A stretch of DNA of 36,309 nucleotides from a virus (Duplodnaviria > Caudoviricetes), in IMG/VR virus record IMGVR_UViG_3300017780_002487, positions 1-36,309 of that record, one strand, 5' to 3'. Below are positions 1,385 to 34,838 of the stretch, piece by piece (the stretch's first letter is position 1; the number at the start of each line of letters is the position of its first letter). Both the position numbers and the translations under genes were made by a program. The notes below the pieces were generated by a model, which worked only from the letters and a program-made list of their open reading frames with translations, had not been told where the DNA came from and searched no databases.

Positions 1385-1433
1385 AACACACACTAATAAA
1401 TTGTGTTTATAATCTAATCTCTTTCAACGCAAC
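1385..1433 (+). promoter_or_regulatory. Rightward early promoter with operator-like inverted repeat
   Basis: TATAAT at 1408-1413; AACACA (1385-1390)...TGTGTT (1402-1407); CTTTCAACGCAAC downstream resembles the promoters at 33542 and 34429. Confidence 0.55.
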
Positions 1434-1447
1434 TGAAGGCAGCAAAA

Positions 1448-1777
1448 ATGAATTCTTCCAATTACCCAGCAGGCACTTACGAAGCACTACTTAAAAAAGA
1501 CCGCGCAGAAATGCGCTACACAAGCCGAGTTGTTGATCTGGTCGTACGAGAAAAAGCGGAACTTGCAGAGACTCTGCAAAAGCCATTTGTCGAGGCATAC
1601 AACACCTTGGCAGAGGTGGATGAGCGCATTTGCCACGAAGATATGTACCAGTGCATTCACTTGGTCGCTGCTGGCGCGCCTGATGAAGTTGTAGGCGCAT
1701 TGTTTGCCAAATACGTAAGGTTGGCCACTGCTGAAGTGGCAATCAGGAATGCGTATTACACCGCAGAAAACGAATAA
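1448..1777 (+). CDS. Hypothetical early protein (109 aa)
   Basis: First ORF after the promoter, purine-rich GAAGG upstream. Confidence 0.65.
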   Translation: MNSSNYPAGTYEALLKKDRAEMRYTSRVVDLVVREKAELAETLQKPFVEAYNTLAEVDERICHEDMYQCIHLVAAGAPDEVVGALFAKYVRLATAEVAIRNAYYTAENE

Positions 1778-29650: not shown

Positions 29651-29814
29651 TTCTCACCATCCTTTTTTGAAACTGCCTTGCACTCATAAACAGTGTCGCC
29701 AACGTAGAACTTCCCCAGTTTGTCGCACTCTTTTGCTACTTCGTTGTGAGCAATAATCCAGCCGAAAGCAAAACCACAGAGAAGCGTAGAAATCGCAATA
29801 AATCCTTCCATCAT
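29647..29814 (-). CDS. 55-aa membrane-anchored protein (not in ORF track)
   Basis: MMEGFIAISTLLCGFAFGWIIAHNEVAKECDKLGKFYVGDTVYECKAVSKKDGEK; ATGA overlaps at both ends. Confidence 0.7.
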   Translation of the reverse strand: MMEGFIAISTLLCGFAFGWIIAHNEVAKECDKLGKFYVGDTVYECKAVSKKDGEK

Positions 29815-30329
29815 TTTTTAAACCTTGCATCTAGCATTTCATCAGTGCATTCGTATGCATCTGCTGTGCGCGGATTATATGGATCGGTGGTAGGCTTATC
29901 TGTAAATCTCCAAGTAAACTGCTCATCAACAAAAAAGTACGCTTTGTCCGGTCTTGGCGTTTCGTCAGTCAGCAGCAGGTCAATCATTAAAAACGGATAC
30001 CCAAACTGCTCCAAATAAAGCCCCTTCATAATCGCCAAAATCATTTTTGGGATTTTGGCTTTGCGCTCCCACAGGCTGACCATGTTTTCCGTGACCCCCA
30101 ACTTCGCGGAGCAAGTGCGTTGAGTCATCCTTAACTCCTGCCGTAGAAAACGAAACTCCGCCCCCGTCAGGAATGGCTTGGTGCAGATGTGACGCCCGAT
30201 GGCTTGATAAAGCTCCGGCAAGTCCTCAAAAACAAACTCGACTTTGAAGTTGTGAATGATTCTCTTAAAGCCATTGATGAGATAAATGTTGTTCAAACCG
30301 CATTCGATGAAGTGGTAGGGTTCAGTCAT
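29811..30329 (-). CDS. XRE-HTH protein resembling MqsA-like type II antitoxins
   Basis: YHFIECGLNNIYLING...LYQAI...LTGAEFRFLRQELRMTQ...LGV....VSLWE; start ATG 30329. Confidence 0.75.
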   Translation of the reverse strand: MTEPYHFIECGLNNIYLINGFKRIIHNFKVEFVFEDLPELYQAIGRHICTKPFLTGAEFRFLRQELRMTQRTCSAKLGVTENMVSLWERKAKIPKMILAIMKGLYLEQFGYPFLMIDLLLTDETPRPDKAYFFVDEQFTWRFTDKPTTDPYNPRTADAYECTDEMLDARFKK

Positions 30330-30579
30330 CACTGCCCCCAATCCCATGCGCGGCTTCGATGGCGCGAGCAAAGCCGTGGTCTGTGTGTTCATGCCTTGCC
30401 GCACATTCCGCTACGATCAATGTAATCTCGTCATCAGTCAGCGGTTGTCGAACAGGGCGGGTGTACAGCGGCTTCCCGATGACCTCCGCAGTGTTTGCCC
30501 CTTTGCGCAGTGAGCCTTCAATACCGCCACCAACTCGCACTGAGTAGATGACGGCAACAGGTTTTTTTTCGTCACTCAT
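30322..30579 (-). CDS. Modular protein: KPVA + unique segment + FARAIE module
   Basis: MSDEKKPVAV...PLYTRPVRQPLTDDEI...FARAIEAAHGIGG. Confidence 0.7.
   Translation of the reverse strand: MSDEKKPVAVIYSVRVGGGIEGSLRKGANTAEVIGKPLYTRPVRQPLTDDEITLIVAECAARHEHTDHGFARAIEAAHGIGGSDD
30335..30451. repeat. Diverged 117-bp direct repeat (partner 31617-31733)
   Basis: Gap-free alignment at offset 1282, encoding RQPLT...AECAARHEHTD.GFARAIE.AHGIG. Confidence 0.85.
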
Positions 30580-30929
30580 AACCCAGCCTCCTTCGCCGCT
30601 GCCAGTGCTGCTTTGGCTTCGTCAAAGTCAAACCACCCTTCCGTATAACGCTGCGCTTGATAAAGCAAGTCATCCAACGCCTCCACCAACTGCTTCGTTA
30701 CATCAGGTGCGGGGTGGGCGTAGAGTGCCACGGCGTTAAAAGCCGCCAGCGCTCCAGACAAATCATGTCTCTTTTGTAGCTCTGCAACTAAGTGGTCGGC
30801 TTGCTCTTTTCTTTTGACCAGTTGGTAATCAACCACTCCGTCTCTCACCATCCACGCTACAGGATTTTGTTCATCACTCATAGTACATCTTCCTTGTCTT
30901 CTACTTCGCTCATTCGTCCTGTCCATCAT
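30576..30929 (-). CDS. Modular protein: PVAW + module A (alternative start 30881)
   Basis: MSDEQNPVAWMVRDGVVDYQL...ALYAHP. Confidence 0.7.
   Translation of the reverse strand: MMDRTNERSRRQGRCTMSDEQNPVAWMVRDGVVDYQLVKRKEQADHLVAELQKRHDLSGALAAFNAVALYAHPAPDVTKQLVEALDDLLYQAQRYTEGWFDFDEAKAALAAAKEAGL
30720..30854. repeat. Near-identical 135-bp direct repeat (partner 32614-32748)
   Basis: Offset 1894, one mismatch seen (gaccagttgg vs gaccaattgg). Confidence 0.92.
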
Positions 30930-31246
30930 TTCCTCCTAGCCCGATTAGGCGACACTGTACTGCAGCCGTCGCCGTTGCCGTCGCCGTAGCCGTAGCAGTT
31001 GCCGTCGCCGTAGTCGTCGCCGTAGCCGTAGCCGTAGCCGTAGTCGTCGCCGTAGCCGTAGCCGTAGCCGTCGCCGTCGCCGTCGCCGTAGCCGTAGCAG
31101 TTGCCGTAGTCGTTGCCGTCGCCGTAGCCGTTGCCGTCGCCGTCGCCGTCGCCGTCGCCGTTGCCGTAGCCGTTGCTATAGCCGTAGCCGTCGCCGTAGC
31201 CGTAGCCGTAGCCGTCGCCGTAGCCGACAGGTCTGAACTGATCCAT
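30926..31246 (-). CDS. Gly-(Tyr/Asp/Asn) repeat protein
   Basis: MDQFRPV(GYGDG...)n; TAATG coupling to the upstream gene. Confidence 0.75.
   Translation of the reverse strand: MDQFRPVGYGDGYGYGYGDGYGYSNGYGNGDGDGDGDGNGYGDGNDYGNCYGYGDGDGDGYGYGYGDDYGYGYGYGDDYGDGNCYGYGDGNGDGCSTVSPNRARRK
30965..31225. repeat. Hexamer microsatellite (GCCGTN)n, about 43 units
   Basis: gccgta/gccgtc/gccgtt units in tandem. Confidence 0.95.
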
Positions 31247-31551
31247 TACAACCCCCATCCGTCTTCAACTGGCACACAGAAAATCTCTGCGCCTTCGGGC
31301 ATGTCTACGCCATTTGGCATTGGCTTGAGTGTCACATTTGTCGACTTAGGTTCTGCGATCATGCCGTCGAACCCAATGCTTTCCCAGCGAAACACATGAA
31401 TCGCACGAGACAGTTTGATGCGTCCATTTTCGCGTGTTACGTCACCAGCAAAAATCCAACCTCGGTCAACTACGATAACAGCGCGGCTGCCTACGATGCG
31501 AGGTTGTGCCTCAGTTGCAGGGATGTACTCAATACCGTTGATGTTGATCAT
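31246..31551 (-). CDS. DUF6948-like small beta protein
   Basis: VIVVDRGWIFAG......IKLSRA.HVFRW...G; GGAG RBS. Confidence 0.65.
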   Translation of the reverse strand: MININGIEYIPATEAQPRIVGSRAVIVVDRGWIFAGDVTRENGRIKLSRAIHVFRWESIGFDGMIAEPKSTNVTLKPMPNGVDMPEGAEIFCVPVEDGWGL

Positions 31552-31606: not shown

Positions 31607-31918
31607 TCATTCCGTACCCCCAATCCCATGCGCTTGTTCAATGGCACGGGCAAATCCATAGTCCGTATGCTCATGCCTTGCCGCACACTCCGCAATAACT
31701 GATGTAATTTGGTCTTCAGTTAGCGGTTGTCGAGCAGCGGGTGCAGGCTGGGTGTACAAAGCACGAACCTCATAAGCCCAGTCATGCAGCACTGGCACCC
31801 TTAAAAAATATTTGTATATTGACTTATGGCATTCTCTCCACGCTGACCAAGGATATTTGTCGTCGGTTGTTGGTCTAGTTCTGTACTGGTAAAAAATTGG
31901 TTTTTGTTCATCACTCAT
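31607..31918 (-). CDS. Modular protein: KP + unique segment + FARAIE module
   Basis: MSDEQKPIFYQYR...ALYTQPAPAARQPLTEDQI...FARAIEQAHGIGG. Confidence 0.7.
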   Translation of the reverse strand: MSDEQKPIFYQYRTRPTTDDKYPWSAWRECHKSIYKYFLRVPVLHDWAYEVRALYTQPAPAARQPLTEDQITSVIAECAARHEHTDYGFARAIEQAHGIGGTE

Positions 31919-32361: not shown

Positions 32362-32775
32362 TCACCATCCTTCCCCCCTTGCTGCTGCGAGCGCTGCTGT
32401 AAGTTCTTGCTGAGGGCGGTGAAGTCGAAGCATGGTTACTTCATCTACAGAGTTCCACTTAGGCTCTGGGCATCCACAACATTCATTGCCGCCCCTGCCG
32501 CAGCATACTGGCTCTGCCCTCTGGTACGCTTCCCATGCAACGGACTGCATTGCTTCAAGTGCAGACTCTGCCGCCTCCACCAACTGCTTTACCACAGCGG
32601 GGTTGTGGTGGGTGTAGAGTGCCACGGCGTTAAAAGCCGCCAGCGCTCCAGACAAATCATGTCTCTTTTGTAGCTCTGCAACTAAGTGGTCGGCTTGCTC
32701 TTTTCTTTTGACCAATTGGTAATCAACCACTCCGTCTCTCACCATCCAAGCCACTGGCTTTTGTTCATTATTCAT
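32362..32775 (-). CDS. Modular protein: KPVAW + module A + Cys-rich module
   Basis: Shares the 135-bp repeat; CCGRGGNECCGCPEP. Confidence 0.7.
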   Translation of the reverse strand: MNNEQKPVAWMVRDGVVDYQLVKRKEQADHLVAELQKRHDLSGALAAFNAVALYTHHNPAVVKQLVEAAESALEAMQSVAWEAYQRAEPVCCGRGGNECCGCPEPKWNSVDEVTMLRLHRPQQELTAALAAARGEGW

Positions 32776-33360: not shown

Positions 33361-33525
33361 TTAACAATAAAGTTCTTCGTTTTCTTCCATGAATCTAACT
33401 GCGTCTGCTTCGCTGTCAAATTTCTTTACAAAGTAAACTCTGCAAAACCCATAATCATCCAAGACCTCTTGGCTAACCATGTACACGGGCTTTTCTTCTT
33501 GCCAAACTTCCATGAATAAACTCAT
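33361..33525 (-). CDS. 54-aa acidic protein (not in ORF track)
   Basis: MSLFMEVWQEEKPVYMVSQEVLDDYGFCRVYFVKKFDSEADAVRFMEENEELYC; 13 D/E vs 5 K/R; directly after the repeated promoter. Confidence 0.7.
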   Translation of the reverse strand: MSLFMEVWQEEKPVYMVSQEVLDDYGFCRVYFVKKFDSEADAVRFMEENEELYC

Positions 33526-33541
33526 TTTTTTTCCCTGTTGC

Positions 33542-33573
33542 GTTGCGATGAAAGGATATTAACACACTAATAT
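33542..33573 (-). promoter_or_regulatory. 32-bp promoter/operator repeat, copy 1
   Basis: gttgcgatgaaaggatattaacacactaatat; minus strand TGTTAATAT extended -10-like; palindrome ATATTA-N6-TAATAT. Confidence 0.75.
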
Positions 33574-33591
33574 AAGAAAAGGTTAGAAATC

Positions 33592-33912
33592 TTAAAAATT
33601 AACAATAAAATTTTTCACGGAAATAATATGTCCTTTATCGTTCCTGGTTGCCGTACTACCCGTATCAGGAGCGACTACATCACTTCTGCCAACAACGGCA
33701 GAAATAACCAGACCACTCACGATATAAACTGTTCCCTCTGCTGGGGATGGCAATCCAACAACATCACCAAAACTTTGCTTATACGTCACTACACCCGCAA
33801 CTTCCCCGACCACTGTTTGCACGGTAGACACCCTTGCAACCTCTCCACTTGCTGGAAAAGTACCCAACCCTTCCACACTTATAGCGTGTGGGGTTAAATT
33901 GATAAATTTCAT
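33592..33912 (-). CDS. NLTPH-motif protein (candidate Crn4-like ring nuclease)
   Basis: INLTPHAI...SG.VARV...GLP.P.EG..YIVS......R.DV.AP...R...G.I. Confidence 0.5.
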   Translation of the reverse strand: MKFINLTPHAISVEGLGTFPASGEVARVSTVQTVVGEVAGVVTYKQSFGDVVGLPSPAEGTVYIVSGLVISAVVGRSDVVAPDTGSTATRNDKGHIISVKNFIVNF

Positions 33913-34406
33913 ATTACCTCCACTCGAACCGCATTCGCGGCATCATTTACAAACACAATCCTAACCTTGGTTGGCTCTTTAAAACTGACGCCACCCATCA
34001 AGGAAATGGCTTTTACGCCAAAAATAGAAGACTTTGCCTGCCCCCAATGAGCAGTGACAATGTCACCTACTTTGTAGTCTTCTCGGGTTTTCGCCCGCAA
34101 TTTTTCAACGCGTGCATCAACCTTTACGGCCTTCTTCTCTGGCGTTGCGGTCTTCACCGCTTCAGGAGAAGCGTTTACCCCAGCTTCGTATAAAGCGGCG
34201 ATTATCGGATTGCCAAAATCTGGCTCGGTGAATGAACGCTCAAACAGAGCATTAACTAAAATGTCTGTCTTGAGAACCGCAGACTCTGCGATTCTCCTAA
34301 ACTGCTCAACCTGAGCAGTTGAGCCTTGCTTTTTTGCAAGGTCAATGGCGATCACCGCCCCGCGGTGAATTGCCTGCCACTGCTTTGTTATCTGTTCTAA
34401 GTTCAT
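33909..34406 (-). CDS. Hypothetical protein (165 aa), first gene of the repeat-flanked cassette
   Basis: CAACAGGGG leader; C-terminal beta-rich YKVGDIV segment. Confidence 0.7.
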   Translation of the reverse strand: MNLEQITKQWQAIHRGAVIAIDLAKKQGSTAQVEQFRRIAESAVLKTDILVNALFERSFTEPDFGNPIIAALYEAGVNASPEAVKTATPEKKAVKVDARVEKLRAKTREDYKVGDIVTAHWGQAKSSIFGVKAISLMGGVSFKEPTKVRIVFVNDAANAVRVEVI

Positions 34407-34428
34407 TTTTTTCCCCTGTTGTTTGTTT

Positions 34429-34460
34429 GTTGCGATGAAAGGATATTAACACACTAATAT
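34429..34460 (-). promoter_or_regulatory. 32-bp promoter/operator repeat, copy 2
   Basis: Identical to 33542-33573. Confidence 0.75.
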
Positions 34461-34499
34461 CTGAAAAGGGGAGCATTTTGAAAAAAAATTAAAAAAATT

Positions 34500-34838
34500 T
34501 TATGCGCTCGCCCTATCCATCGCCCTATTGCTTGCCTCCAGACTGCGCCACACTTCAGCCTTAGCCTGTGCTGCAATCAACATCCAGCGCAATGATTCCT
34601 CCCGCTCTACGGCGCTTTTAAGCCCTTCCAGCAGGCTTATGTATTCTCCACTGGCGTATGCCTCACGCTCTTGAGTTGCGGAGGTTTTGAAGCCATTTAA
34701 TTCGGCCTGCTGCATGAGCATGGCTTTTTTAGACTTCCGCATTTCCTCCAAGTACACCCGTTCGGCCTTGGCCTGAGCGAATAATTTTGAGTTGTCCCGC
34801 ATGAAATCTAAAACCTTGTGAATGTCGATGTCAGTCAA
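34500..34838 (-). CDS. Helical phage protein (UvsY-like coiled coil, tentative)
   Basis: AQAKAERVYLEE.RKSKKA.LM...QEREAYA...WRSLEASNR. Confidence 0.6.
   Translation of the reverse strand: MTDIDIHKVLDFMRDNSKLFAQAKAERVYLEEMRKSKKAMLMQQAELNGFKTSATQEREAYASGEYISLLEGLKSAVEREESLRWMLIAAQAKAEVWRSLEASNRAMDRASA

What the first reader, a model, noticed from the sequence alone, without database searches (positions are those of the whole stretch)
33592..33912. NLTPH-motif protein: candidate viral cyclic-oligoadenylate ring nuclease
Seen: a 106-aa beta-rich protein with N-terminal NLTPH and GLP..EG..YIVS / R.D..AP / R...G.I motifs. From memory, this pattern matches the Crn4 family of type III CRISPR-associated ring nucleases, which has a His in an N-terminal NxTxH motif and reported phage homologues. 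I cannot verify this assignment here. Its place behind a dedicated early promoter fits an anti-CRISPR or anti-CBASS role.
Basis: partly seen in the sequence, partly recalled or inferred. Interest (0 to 1): 0.75.

Follow-up and report, generated by a model that had tools for sequence, protein, structure and literature searches.

The report
Swappable phage Crn4 ring-nuclease cassette
A small freshwater phage carries a clear relative of Crn4, an enzyme family that destroys the ring-shaped alarm molecules of type III CRISPR immunity, on an 887-base two-gene cassette that close sister phages lack, so it is likely an optional counter-defence gene of a kind already predicted but not yet tested for any phage copy.

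Summary
Confirmed. The minus-strand ORF 33592-33912 (106 aa) is a Crn4/Unk_01 family protein: profile hits to Crn4b and Crn4a (E 1.5e-15, 1.4e-11), Unk_01 model (8.8e-19), fold match only to Crn4 (Z 13.4 and 11.5, next 2.6), predicted hairpin-swapped dimer. Catalytic His9 and Arg90 are kept; the adenine-stacking Arg92 of Crn4a is Gly, and the loop before Arg90 is three residues longer than in both solved enzymes. The promoter is not dedicated: the gene is second in a two-gene unit bracketed by a duplicated leader 887 bp apart. Five of five sister-phage loci lack it there, one shows the exact empty site, and contigs in 2 of 4 runs join across it. A diverged allele shows purifying selection (29 of 40 changes at third positions). 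Most likely a phage anti-type-III-CRISPR ring nuclease; activity, substrate, host and timing are untested. Phage Crn4 is already reported (PMC12830947), and this scan noted phage Crn4 before on other DNA. New here: the swappable cassette and the untested long-loop subtype.

The parts
33592..33912 (-). Crn4-family (Unk_01) gene, 106 aa; T7/H9/S66/R90 = Crn4a T13/H15/S91/R112; G67 in place of R92; 7 residues between P82 and R90 against 4 in solved Crn4a/b
33909..34406 (-). 165-aa partner ORF of unknown function, first gene of the unit, overlapping the Crn4 start (ATGA)
   Evidence: 4 other clusters at 67-81% identity; no Pfam, PHROG, PADLOC, PDB or Atlas hit of use; fold model unusable, pLDDT 54.7
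34404..34503 (-). AT-rich leader, copy A (promoter/operator-like; exact 32-nt core 34429-34460; TATTA-N6-TAATA inverted repeat; purine-rich ribosome-binding stretch)
   Evidence: one copy at the same place in 5 of 5 sister loci; promoter function inferred
33522..33614 (-). Leader copy B (core 33542-33573), overlapping the Crn4 stop, in front of the 54-aa ORF
33574..34460 (.). 887-bp repeat-to-repeat cassette (partner + Crn4 + one leader copy), present or absent among sister phages
   Evidence: joint 33582->34482 in runs X5 and X6 with 11 letters of copy A between; exact empty site in L223
33361..33525 (-). 54-aa ORF that follows a single leader copy directly in the empty-site allele
34500..34838 (-). 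112-aa flanking gene used as anchor for sister phages (94-99% identical in 5 loci)
1398..1450 (+). Related leader in front of the Erf / exonuclease / SSB operon
   Evidence: pattern drawn after seeing the sites

Best explanation
The gene encodes a Crn4-family protein that is predicted to form a hairpin-swapped dimer and likely cuts cyclic oligoadenylate alarm molecules (cA4, probably also cA3), which would blunt type III CRISPR immunity during infection; it rides on an 887-bp cassette that sister phages lack. Shown here: family membership by sequence and fold, retention of His9/Arg90/Thr7/Ser66, purifying selection, and presence/absence of the cassette between two copies of one leader. Inferred from Crn4a/b (PMC12830947): one ring binds at the dimer interface, His9 acts as general acid and Arg90 of the other subunit holds the phosphate, giving A2>p-type products so that Csx1/Can2/Csm6-type effectors stay off. 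Inferred from anatomy: the cassette is gained or lost by recombination between the leader copies (the phage encodes an Erf-like annealing protein and an exonuclease) and is transcribed from copy A with the 165-aa partner. My odds: family member 0.97; active cOA nuclease 0.85; type III CRISPR as main target in vivo 0.6.
For: phmmer: Crn4b 9R7B E 1.8e-5, the only three PDB matches up to E 10 are Crn4. Profile: Crn4b 1.5e-15, Crn4a 1.4e-11 and 1.7e-9, next 0.33. PADLOC Unk_01 8.8e-19 over 1-99 of 103 positions. Foldseek: all 7 matches at E<=0.001 are Crn4, TM 0.76 to 9R7B; VIA Z 13.4 (rmsd 2.7, 102 aligned) and 11.5, next 2.6, of 48,161 chains. Dimer score 0.68 against best control 0.43 (mark reached by 20 of 30 solved pairs and 1 of 23 single chains; runs agree in >=94% of contacts, pLDDT >=91), hairpin 38-46 on the partner's strand 100-106; a like complex is solved, so this shows likeness only. 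H9 and R90 invariant in 120 of 120. 6 of 20 cellular relatives sit at CRISPR loci: L087, L093, L094 behind cas1-PrimPol-cas2 and arrays, L092 beside an array, L097 in a type III-D locus with GGDD Cas10 and a CARF-HEPN effector, L099 behind cmr5/cmr6; five of the six are long-loop and all six lack the Arg92 equivalent, as this protein does. Diverged allele in run X6: 29 of 40 listed changes at third codon positions, p 4.7e-7. Sister phage G006 (complete, 94-99% nucleotide identity in the flanks) has no copy; 5 of 5 sister loci lack it at this site.
Against: No activity of any phage Crn4 is reported in the 7 papers listed. The Arg92 that stacks on an adenine in the Crn4a-cA6 structure is Gly here and Arg in 0 of the 120 nearest homologues, and the loop before Arg90 is longer, so the pocket differs from both tested enzymes. 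The host is unknown (best terminase hits: an uncultured spring-water phage at 80.7%, a Xanthomonas phage at 66.9%), so no type III system is shown in it. 14 of 20 cellular relatives show no CRISPR link in the DNA held (several are short contigs), no Cas10 was found in the genomes of L087 and L092, and Cas10 of L093 is split by an insertion sequence. 11 of 102 neighbours of viral copies hit a PHROG and none is an annotated anti-defence gene. The family is very large (10,968 clusters at 50% identity), more than type III CRISPR alone obviously calls for.
Confidence: 0.6

Rival explanations
1. Same enzyme, but its main target in vivo is cA3 of CBASS-type (NucC) systems rather than type III CRISPR.
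For: Crn4a and Crn4b both degrade cA3, and the authors raise a dual role (PMC12830947); a fused Crn4 domain prefers cA3 (TSR1 preprint, passages); the family is far larger than its known CRISPR-linked set; the host is unknown.
Against: Every defence-linked cellular relative found here is at a CRISPR locus, none was recognised at a CBASS operon; effectors beside the nearest cellular type are CARF-HEPN Csx1-like, cA4-type by established knowledge; Crn4a does not cleave cAAG.
Confidence: 0.18
2. The long-loop, Arg92-less subtype binds a nucleotide signal without useful turnover (sponge) or cuts a different cyclic or linear oligonucleotide.
For: Arg at the 92 site in 1 of 367 long-loop rows against 23 of 121 short-loop rows (rows overlap and are not phylogenetically independent); three extra residues next to the catalytic Arg.
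Against: Both residues that are essential for cleavage are invariant; most Crn4a-cA6 contacts are main-chain; 98 of 121 short-loop rows also lack that Arg, so it is not family-defining; long-loop members occur inside type III loci.
Confidence: 0.14
3. A neutral passenger on a self-shuffling leader-bounded cassette, with no benefit to this phage.
For: Absent from 5 of 5 sister loci; cassette-free contigs are deeper than cassette-bearing ones in X5 (31 against 2-3) and X6 (44 against 13), though depth is no copy number.
Against: Purifying selection between alleles; intact frame, ribosome-binding site and catalytic residues; 76-89% identical alleles P0002/P0003 keep length and motifs.
Confidence: 0.06

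Closest known systems
Crn4b ring nuclease (MBK8772583, PDB 9R7B; Chi et al. 2025, PMC12830947)
   Same: Same fold (TM 0.76, Z 13.4, about 30% identity), short hairpin without the Crn4a insertion, NLTPH His and C-terminal Arg, predicted hairpin-wrapped dimer; the paper reports Crn4b in 11 of 28,137 phage genomes and proposes an anti-CRISPR role.
   Different: Phage-encoded and untested; Gly in place of the SR arginine; 7 rather than 4 residues between Pro82 and the catalytic Arg; sits on a repeat-bounded optional cassette rather than in a CRISPR locus.
Crn4a (A. procaprae WP_136192672, PDB 9SMA/9QS9)
   Same: Fold (Z 11.5) and T13/H15/S91/R112 equivalents.
   Different: Lacks the roughly 10-residue longer hairpin; Crn4b without it is inactive on cA6, so cA6 cleavage is not expected here.
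AcrIII-1 / AcrIII-2 viral ring nucleases
   Same: Works like them by inference: a viral enzyme that removes the cOA signal.
   Different: Unrelated folds (no match); AcrIII-1 is cA4-specific. Not a member.
PeSL promoter cassettes of T4-type phages (Arbiol et al. 2010, PMC2839356; abstract read)
   Same: Repeated regulatory elements bracket non-essential genes; insertion, deletion and replacement between near-identical phages map to them.
   Different: Here a 36-kb podophage with P22-like head genes and only two or three copies; no terminator stem-loop was called in the leader and promoter activity is untested.

Membership tests
Crn4 (Unk_01) | Sequence profile match over the whole domain | tested here: met
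   PADLOC Unk_01 E 8.8e-19, 1-99/103; profile of homologues hits Crn4b 1.5e-15 and Crn4a 1.4e-11
Crn4 (Unk_01) | Unique beta-rich non-Rossmann fold with extended hairpin | tested here: met
   AF2 pLDDT 97.4; Foldseek and VIA match Crn4 only
Crn4 (Unk_01) | Conserved T13, H15, R112 (Crn4a numbering) | tested here: met
   T7, H9, R90 align to them and are invariant in 120 of 120
Crn4 (Unk_01) | Homodimer with hairpin wrapping the partner | tested here: met
   Predicted only: 0.68 against best control 0.43, hairpin 38-46 on strand 100-106; may reflect likeness to the solved dimers
Crn4 (Unk_01) | Ligand contacts S91/R92/E16 (shared by Crn4a and b; not listed by the authors as family-wide) | tested here: inconclusive
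   S66 kept; R92 is G67, E16 (main-chain contact) is A10; Arg at this site in only 24 of 488 rows examined
Crn4 (Unk_01) | Cleaves cA3/cA4 (cA6 for Crn4a) to linear >p products | not testable with these tools
   Needs an enzyme assay
Crn4b subfamily | Lacks the roughly 10-residue hairpin insertion of Crn4a | tested here: met
   Crn4a needs a 14-residue insertion against the profile, Crn4b 3; the phage alignment of the paper (Suppl. Fig. 2) is a picture and could not be read
Anti-CRISPR ring nuclease (AcrIII class) | Encoded by a mobile element outside any CRISPR locus | tested here: met
   Complete 36,309-bp virus record with terminal repeats, terminase, portal, major head protein
Anti-CRISPR ring nuclease (AcrIII class) | Rescues infection against type III immunity | not testable with these tools
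   Host unknown; needs a plaque or plasmid-challenge assay
Anti-CRISPR ring nuclease (AcrIII class) | Early expression | tested here: inconclusive
   No sigma-70 site called; leader shares a motif with the recombination-operon leader; lies between replication and packaging genes
PeSL-like shuffling cassette | Repeated regulatory element at the borders of gene gain, loss and replacement | tested here: met
   Empty site in L223, replaced cargo in L224-L226, two copies around other cargo in L227; joint in X5, X6
PeSL-like shuffling cassette | Promoter plus terminator stem-loop activity; excised mini-circles | not testable with these tools
   No terminator-like site called within either leader copy; contigs cannot tell a circle from a tandem loop

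The most novel reading that the evidence does not exclude
The duplicated leader is a recombination toggle that lets one phage population gain and shed a ring nuclease, trading protection against type III CRISPR or cA3-CBASS against tripping the cA3-guarded type II Panoptes system (which Crn4a activates, PMC13577387); and the long-loop, Arg92-less Crn4 subtype, the dominant form among viral relatives here and apparently recaptured by gut type III-D loci, has a shifted specificity that spares the cA3 decoy.
Probability: 0.12. Interest if true: 0.72.

Novelty: new member of a known kind. Interest (0 to 1): 0.4.

Why it matters
Phage Crn4 proteins were proposed as anti-CRISPRs in 2025 but, in the papers found, none has been assayed. 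This copy is a good test case: small, intact, under purifying selection, and with natural cassette-free sister phages as built-in controls. It also stands for a long-loop subtype without the adenine-stacking arginine, which neither solved enzyme represents, and the family looks much larger (10,968 clusters at 50% identity) than the 22 cellular, 11 phage and 10 plasmid cases published. If the cassette's gain and loss reflects the Panoptes trade-off, it would be a field example of a cost so far shown only with plasmids and acb1 mutants.

Tried and rejected
Pfam and NCBIfam: no family for the protein; PHROGs: only unknown-function families 30542 and 21731. A source's label 'acetyl-CoA carboxylase carboxyltransferase component' on the 89% relative P0002 is rejected: no sequence or fold support. 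'Dedicated promoter': rejected, the gene is second in its unit. Fixed anti-defence island: not supported; 11 of 102 neighbours scanned hit a PHROG, none anti-defence (102 of 169 adjacent ORFs were sent, opposite-strand ORFs, near-duplicates and the last 19 left out), and neighbours cluster only among near-identical phages. Partner ORF: no relative in IMG/VR by pattern scan, none in 136 loci, no Atlas hit, AF2 model too poor for a fold search; its role is open. Expression: no RNA holder listed. Host: no kin drawn for a virus record; terminase hits do not settle it. Cas10 search with TIGR02578 found 0 of 5; PF22335 found 3 of 5. Absence in G007-G010 is weak, as they are 36-60% complete. The TATTA-N6-TAATA motif alone is not above chance (2 matches, 0.92 expected). 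The tree is a quick one on 118 columns with a midpoint root; the long-loop/short-loop split has only 87% SH-aLRT, so no origin or direction of transfer is claimed. Joint as assembly artefact through the 32-nt repeat: considered (laid at 85% likeness, at a repeat), but the separately assembled L223 shows the same empty site and G006 a single leader. L143 is the window's own sequence and was not counted.

Full report
What the window is. The window is a whole virus record of 36,309 bases with a 123-nt terminal repeat. It has terminase, portal and major head genes of the P22-like kind, an O-like replication initiator and an Erf/exonuclease/SSB operon. Of the 17 runs listed as holding the stretch, 16 are freshwater metagenomes and one is drinking water; two may be its source. 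The host is unknown.

Observation. The ORF is real: minus strand, 33912 to 33592, 106 aa, with a GGAGG site and an ATGA overlap with a 165-aa ORF upstream. 363 of 388 candidates were homologues at E<=0.001; in the best 120, N5, T7, H9, R27, G49, S66, P82 and R90 are invariant.

Identity. A single-sequence search of the PDB returned three sequences up to E 10, all Crn4, best Crn4b at 1.8e-5. The profile gave Crn4b 1.5e-15, Crn4a 1.4e-11 and 1.7e-9, then 0.33. The PADLOC model Unk_01, the earlier name of Crn4 according to PMC12830947, matches at 8.8e-19 over 99 of 103 positions. The AlphaFold2 model (pLDDT 97.4) matches only Crn4 by Foldseek (7 of 7 hits at E<=0.001) and by VIA-align (Z 13.4 and 11.5, next 2.6). 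A two-copy prediction scored 0.68 against a best control of 0.43, with the hairpin 38-46 lying on the partner's last strand; solved Crn4 dimers exist, so this shows likeness, not binding.

Mechanism by homology. I read parts 1-4 of 7 of PMC12830947 (introduction to methods) and part 1 of 2 of its first supplement. Crn4a cuts cA3, cA4 and cA6, Crn4b cuts cA3 and cA4, H15A and R112A abolish activity, cAAG is not a substrate, and Crn4a relieves type III immunity in a plasmid assay. T7, H9, S66 and R90 align with T13, H15, S91 and R112. Two differences stand out. R92, which stacks on an adenine and is shared by both solved enzymes, is Gly67; none of the 120 nearest homologues has Arg there. And 7 residues separate P82 from R90, against 4 in both solved enzymes. 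Over 488 rows (overlapping sets, biased to relatives of this protein and of one Arg-type query), Arg occurs in 23 of 121 short-loop and 1 of 367 long-loop rows. Since most short-loop rows lack it too, it is not family-defining, but the pocket here has not been tested. The paper's phage alignment is a picture, so I could not check whether its phage set already includes long-loop proteins; my search found 18 records (12 phage names) among 50,697 phage records and 9 of 72,556 plasmid records, close to its 11 and 10, so overlap is likely.

Do proteins of this subtype deal with cOA? Of 20 cellular loci, 6 are CRISPR-linked: three behind cas1-PrimPol-cas2 and arrays, one beside an array, one in an intact type III-D locus with a GGDD Cas10 and CARF-HEPN effector, one behind cmr5/cmr6. 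Five of the six are long-loop. Against this: 14 of 20 show no such link, Cas10 was found in 3 of the 5 genomes searched, and in L093's genome it is split by an insertion sequence. In the quick tree four of these cellular copies nest among viral rows, which would fit capture from phages, but support is too low to claim it.

The cassette. A 32-nt exact repeat lies at 33542-33573 and 34429-34460 (none expected by chance), inside two AT-rich leaders of about 95 nt. In the direction of transcription the order is 112-aa gene, leader A, 165-aa partner, Crn4, leader B, 54-aa gene. A complete sister phage, G006, is 94-99% identical in the flanks, has one leader followed by other genes, and has no Crn4 anywhere. 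Among 17 loci found with the 112-aa gene, 5 are 94-99% identical (one is G006). All 5 lack Crn4 at this site: L223 has one leader followed directly by the 54-aa gene, the exact empty site; L224-L226 carry a 102-aa gene; L227 has two leader copies around about 1.8 kb of other cargo. Of 22 listed runs I laid 4, from 4 studies, leaving out the two possible sources. Contigs in X5 and X6 join 33582 to 34482 with 11 letters of leader A between, a net loss of one repeat spacing; X3 and X4 cover the cassette interior without differences, and X6 also holds an 890-nt diverged copy running from repeat to repeat. In that copy 29 of the 40 listed changes in the gene (one more not shown) fall on third codon positions (p 4.7e-7). 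The partner has only 4 other clusters (67-81% identity); two share their longest-contig length with the Crn4 relatives P0002 and P0003, which suggests the pair travels together. More widely, 11 of 86 viral loci have an exact repeat of 18 nt or more on both sides of the gene against 2 of 70 control positions (p 0.039, loci not independent). This resembles PeSL-mediated shuffling in T4-type phages (PMC2839356, abstract only).

Promoter and timing. The consensus scan called no coding-strand sigma-70 site in either leader. By eye the core holds a TG-extended -10-like TAATAT within an inverted repeat, conserved in the sister copies. A related leader heads the recombination operon at about 1398-1450 (3 matches against 0.17 expected, pattern drawn after the fact). 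Early expression is therefore plausible, not shown.

Why optional? PMC13577387 (passages and discussion read) shows that Crn4a expression triggers cA3-guarded type II Panoptes and that phages escape by losing acb1. A ring nuclease can thus carry a cost, which would favour a removable cassette. That link is inference; nothing here shows the host has Panoptes.

Novelty. The family, its mechanism and phage homologues are published; the searches 'Crn4 + ring nuclease', 'Crn4 + phage' (2025 on) and 'Unk01 + ring nuclease' (listings, with passages of three further papers) showed no assay of a phage copy and no account of a repeat-bounded Crn4 cassette; subscription papers and bioRxiv supplements were not searchable. 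Earlier notes of this scan record phage Crn4 on other genomes, none on this sequence or genome. A profile search found 10,968 clusters at E<=0.001 among 1.84 billion representatives, and 210 of 251 pattern matches in IMG/VR were relatives, so the family is common. Verdict: a new member of a known kind, with a well-documented optional cassette and an untested subtype. Interest 0.4.

Noticed in passing
L087:8363-9607, L092:2371-3600, L093:8505-9719, L094:8572-9942: In gut-bacterial CRISPR loci the Crn4 gene is followed by a 404-456-aa protein with a weak Schlafen/AlbA_2 hit (E 1e-6 to 4e-5) and no PADLOC hit for the two tested; possibly an unrecognised type III accessory protein. Not compared with Cash (PMC13462974, listing only).
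   Followed up: partly
L138:5197-8278 (G003): Cas10 of this type III-D locus is split by an insertion-sequence-like 428-aa ORF on the other strand, while the homologue in G004 is whole with GGDD.
   Followed up: no
proteins P0122, P0127: Single chains with two Crn4 domains in tandem: possible pseudo-dimers with an asymmetric pocket. Many other hits carry long extensions; 1 of 25 scanned had a Pfam hit, a weak zinc ribbon.
   Followed up: no
L082, L083, L084: Three diverged Crn4 copies on three short contigs of one Kroppenstedtia guangzhouensis assembly.
   Followed up: no
window 30926-31258 (-): 110-aa ORF made of Gly-Tyr-Gly-Asp/Asn repeats; a similar ORF follows the same upstream gene in sister locus L225.
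   Followed up: no
window 30678-30881 and 32572-32775; 30335-30455 and 31617-31737: Duplicated gene segments (204 nt at 91%, 121 nt at 80%) among the small genes before the terminase, pointing to further module shuffling.
   Followed up: no
L223:4374-5267: A sister phage carries a DNA methyltransferase a few genes downstream of the same leader, another optional counter-defence-type cargo in this region.
   Followed up: no
window 33959 (run X4): A contig fits up to 33959 and goes on with 156 unlike letters: perhaps a Crn4 allele with a different upstream gene.
   Followed up: no
window 29811-30404 (-): 197-aa ORF with a central helix-turn-helix hit (PHROG 5119, weak regulator hits), a candidate regulator of the repeated leader.
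   Followed up: no
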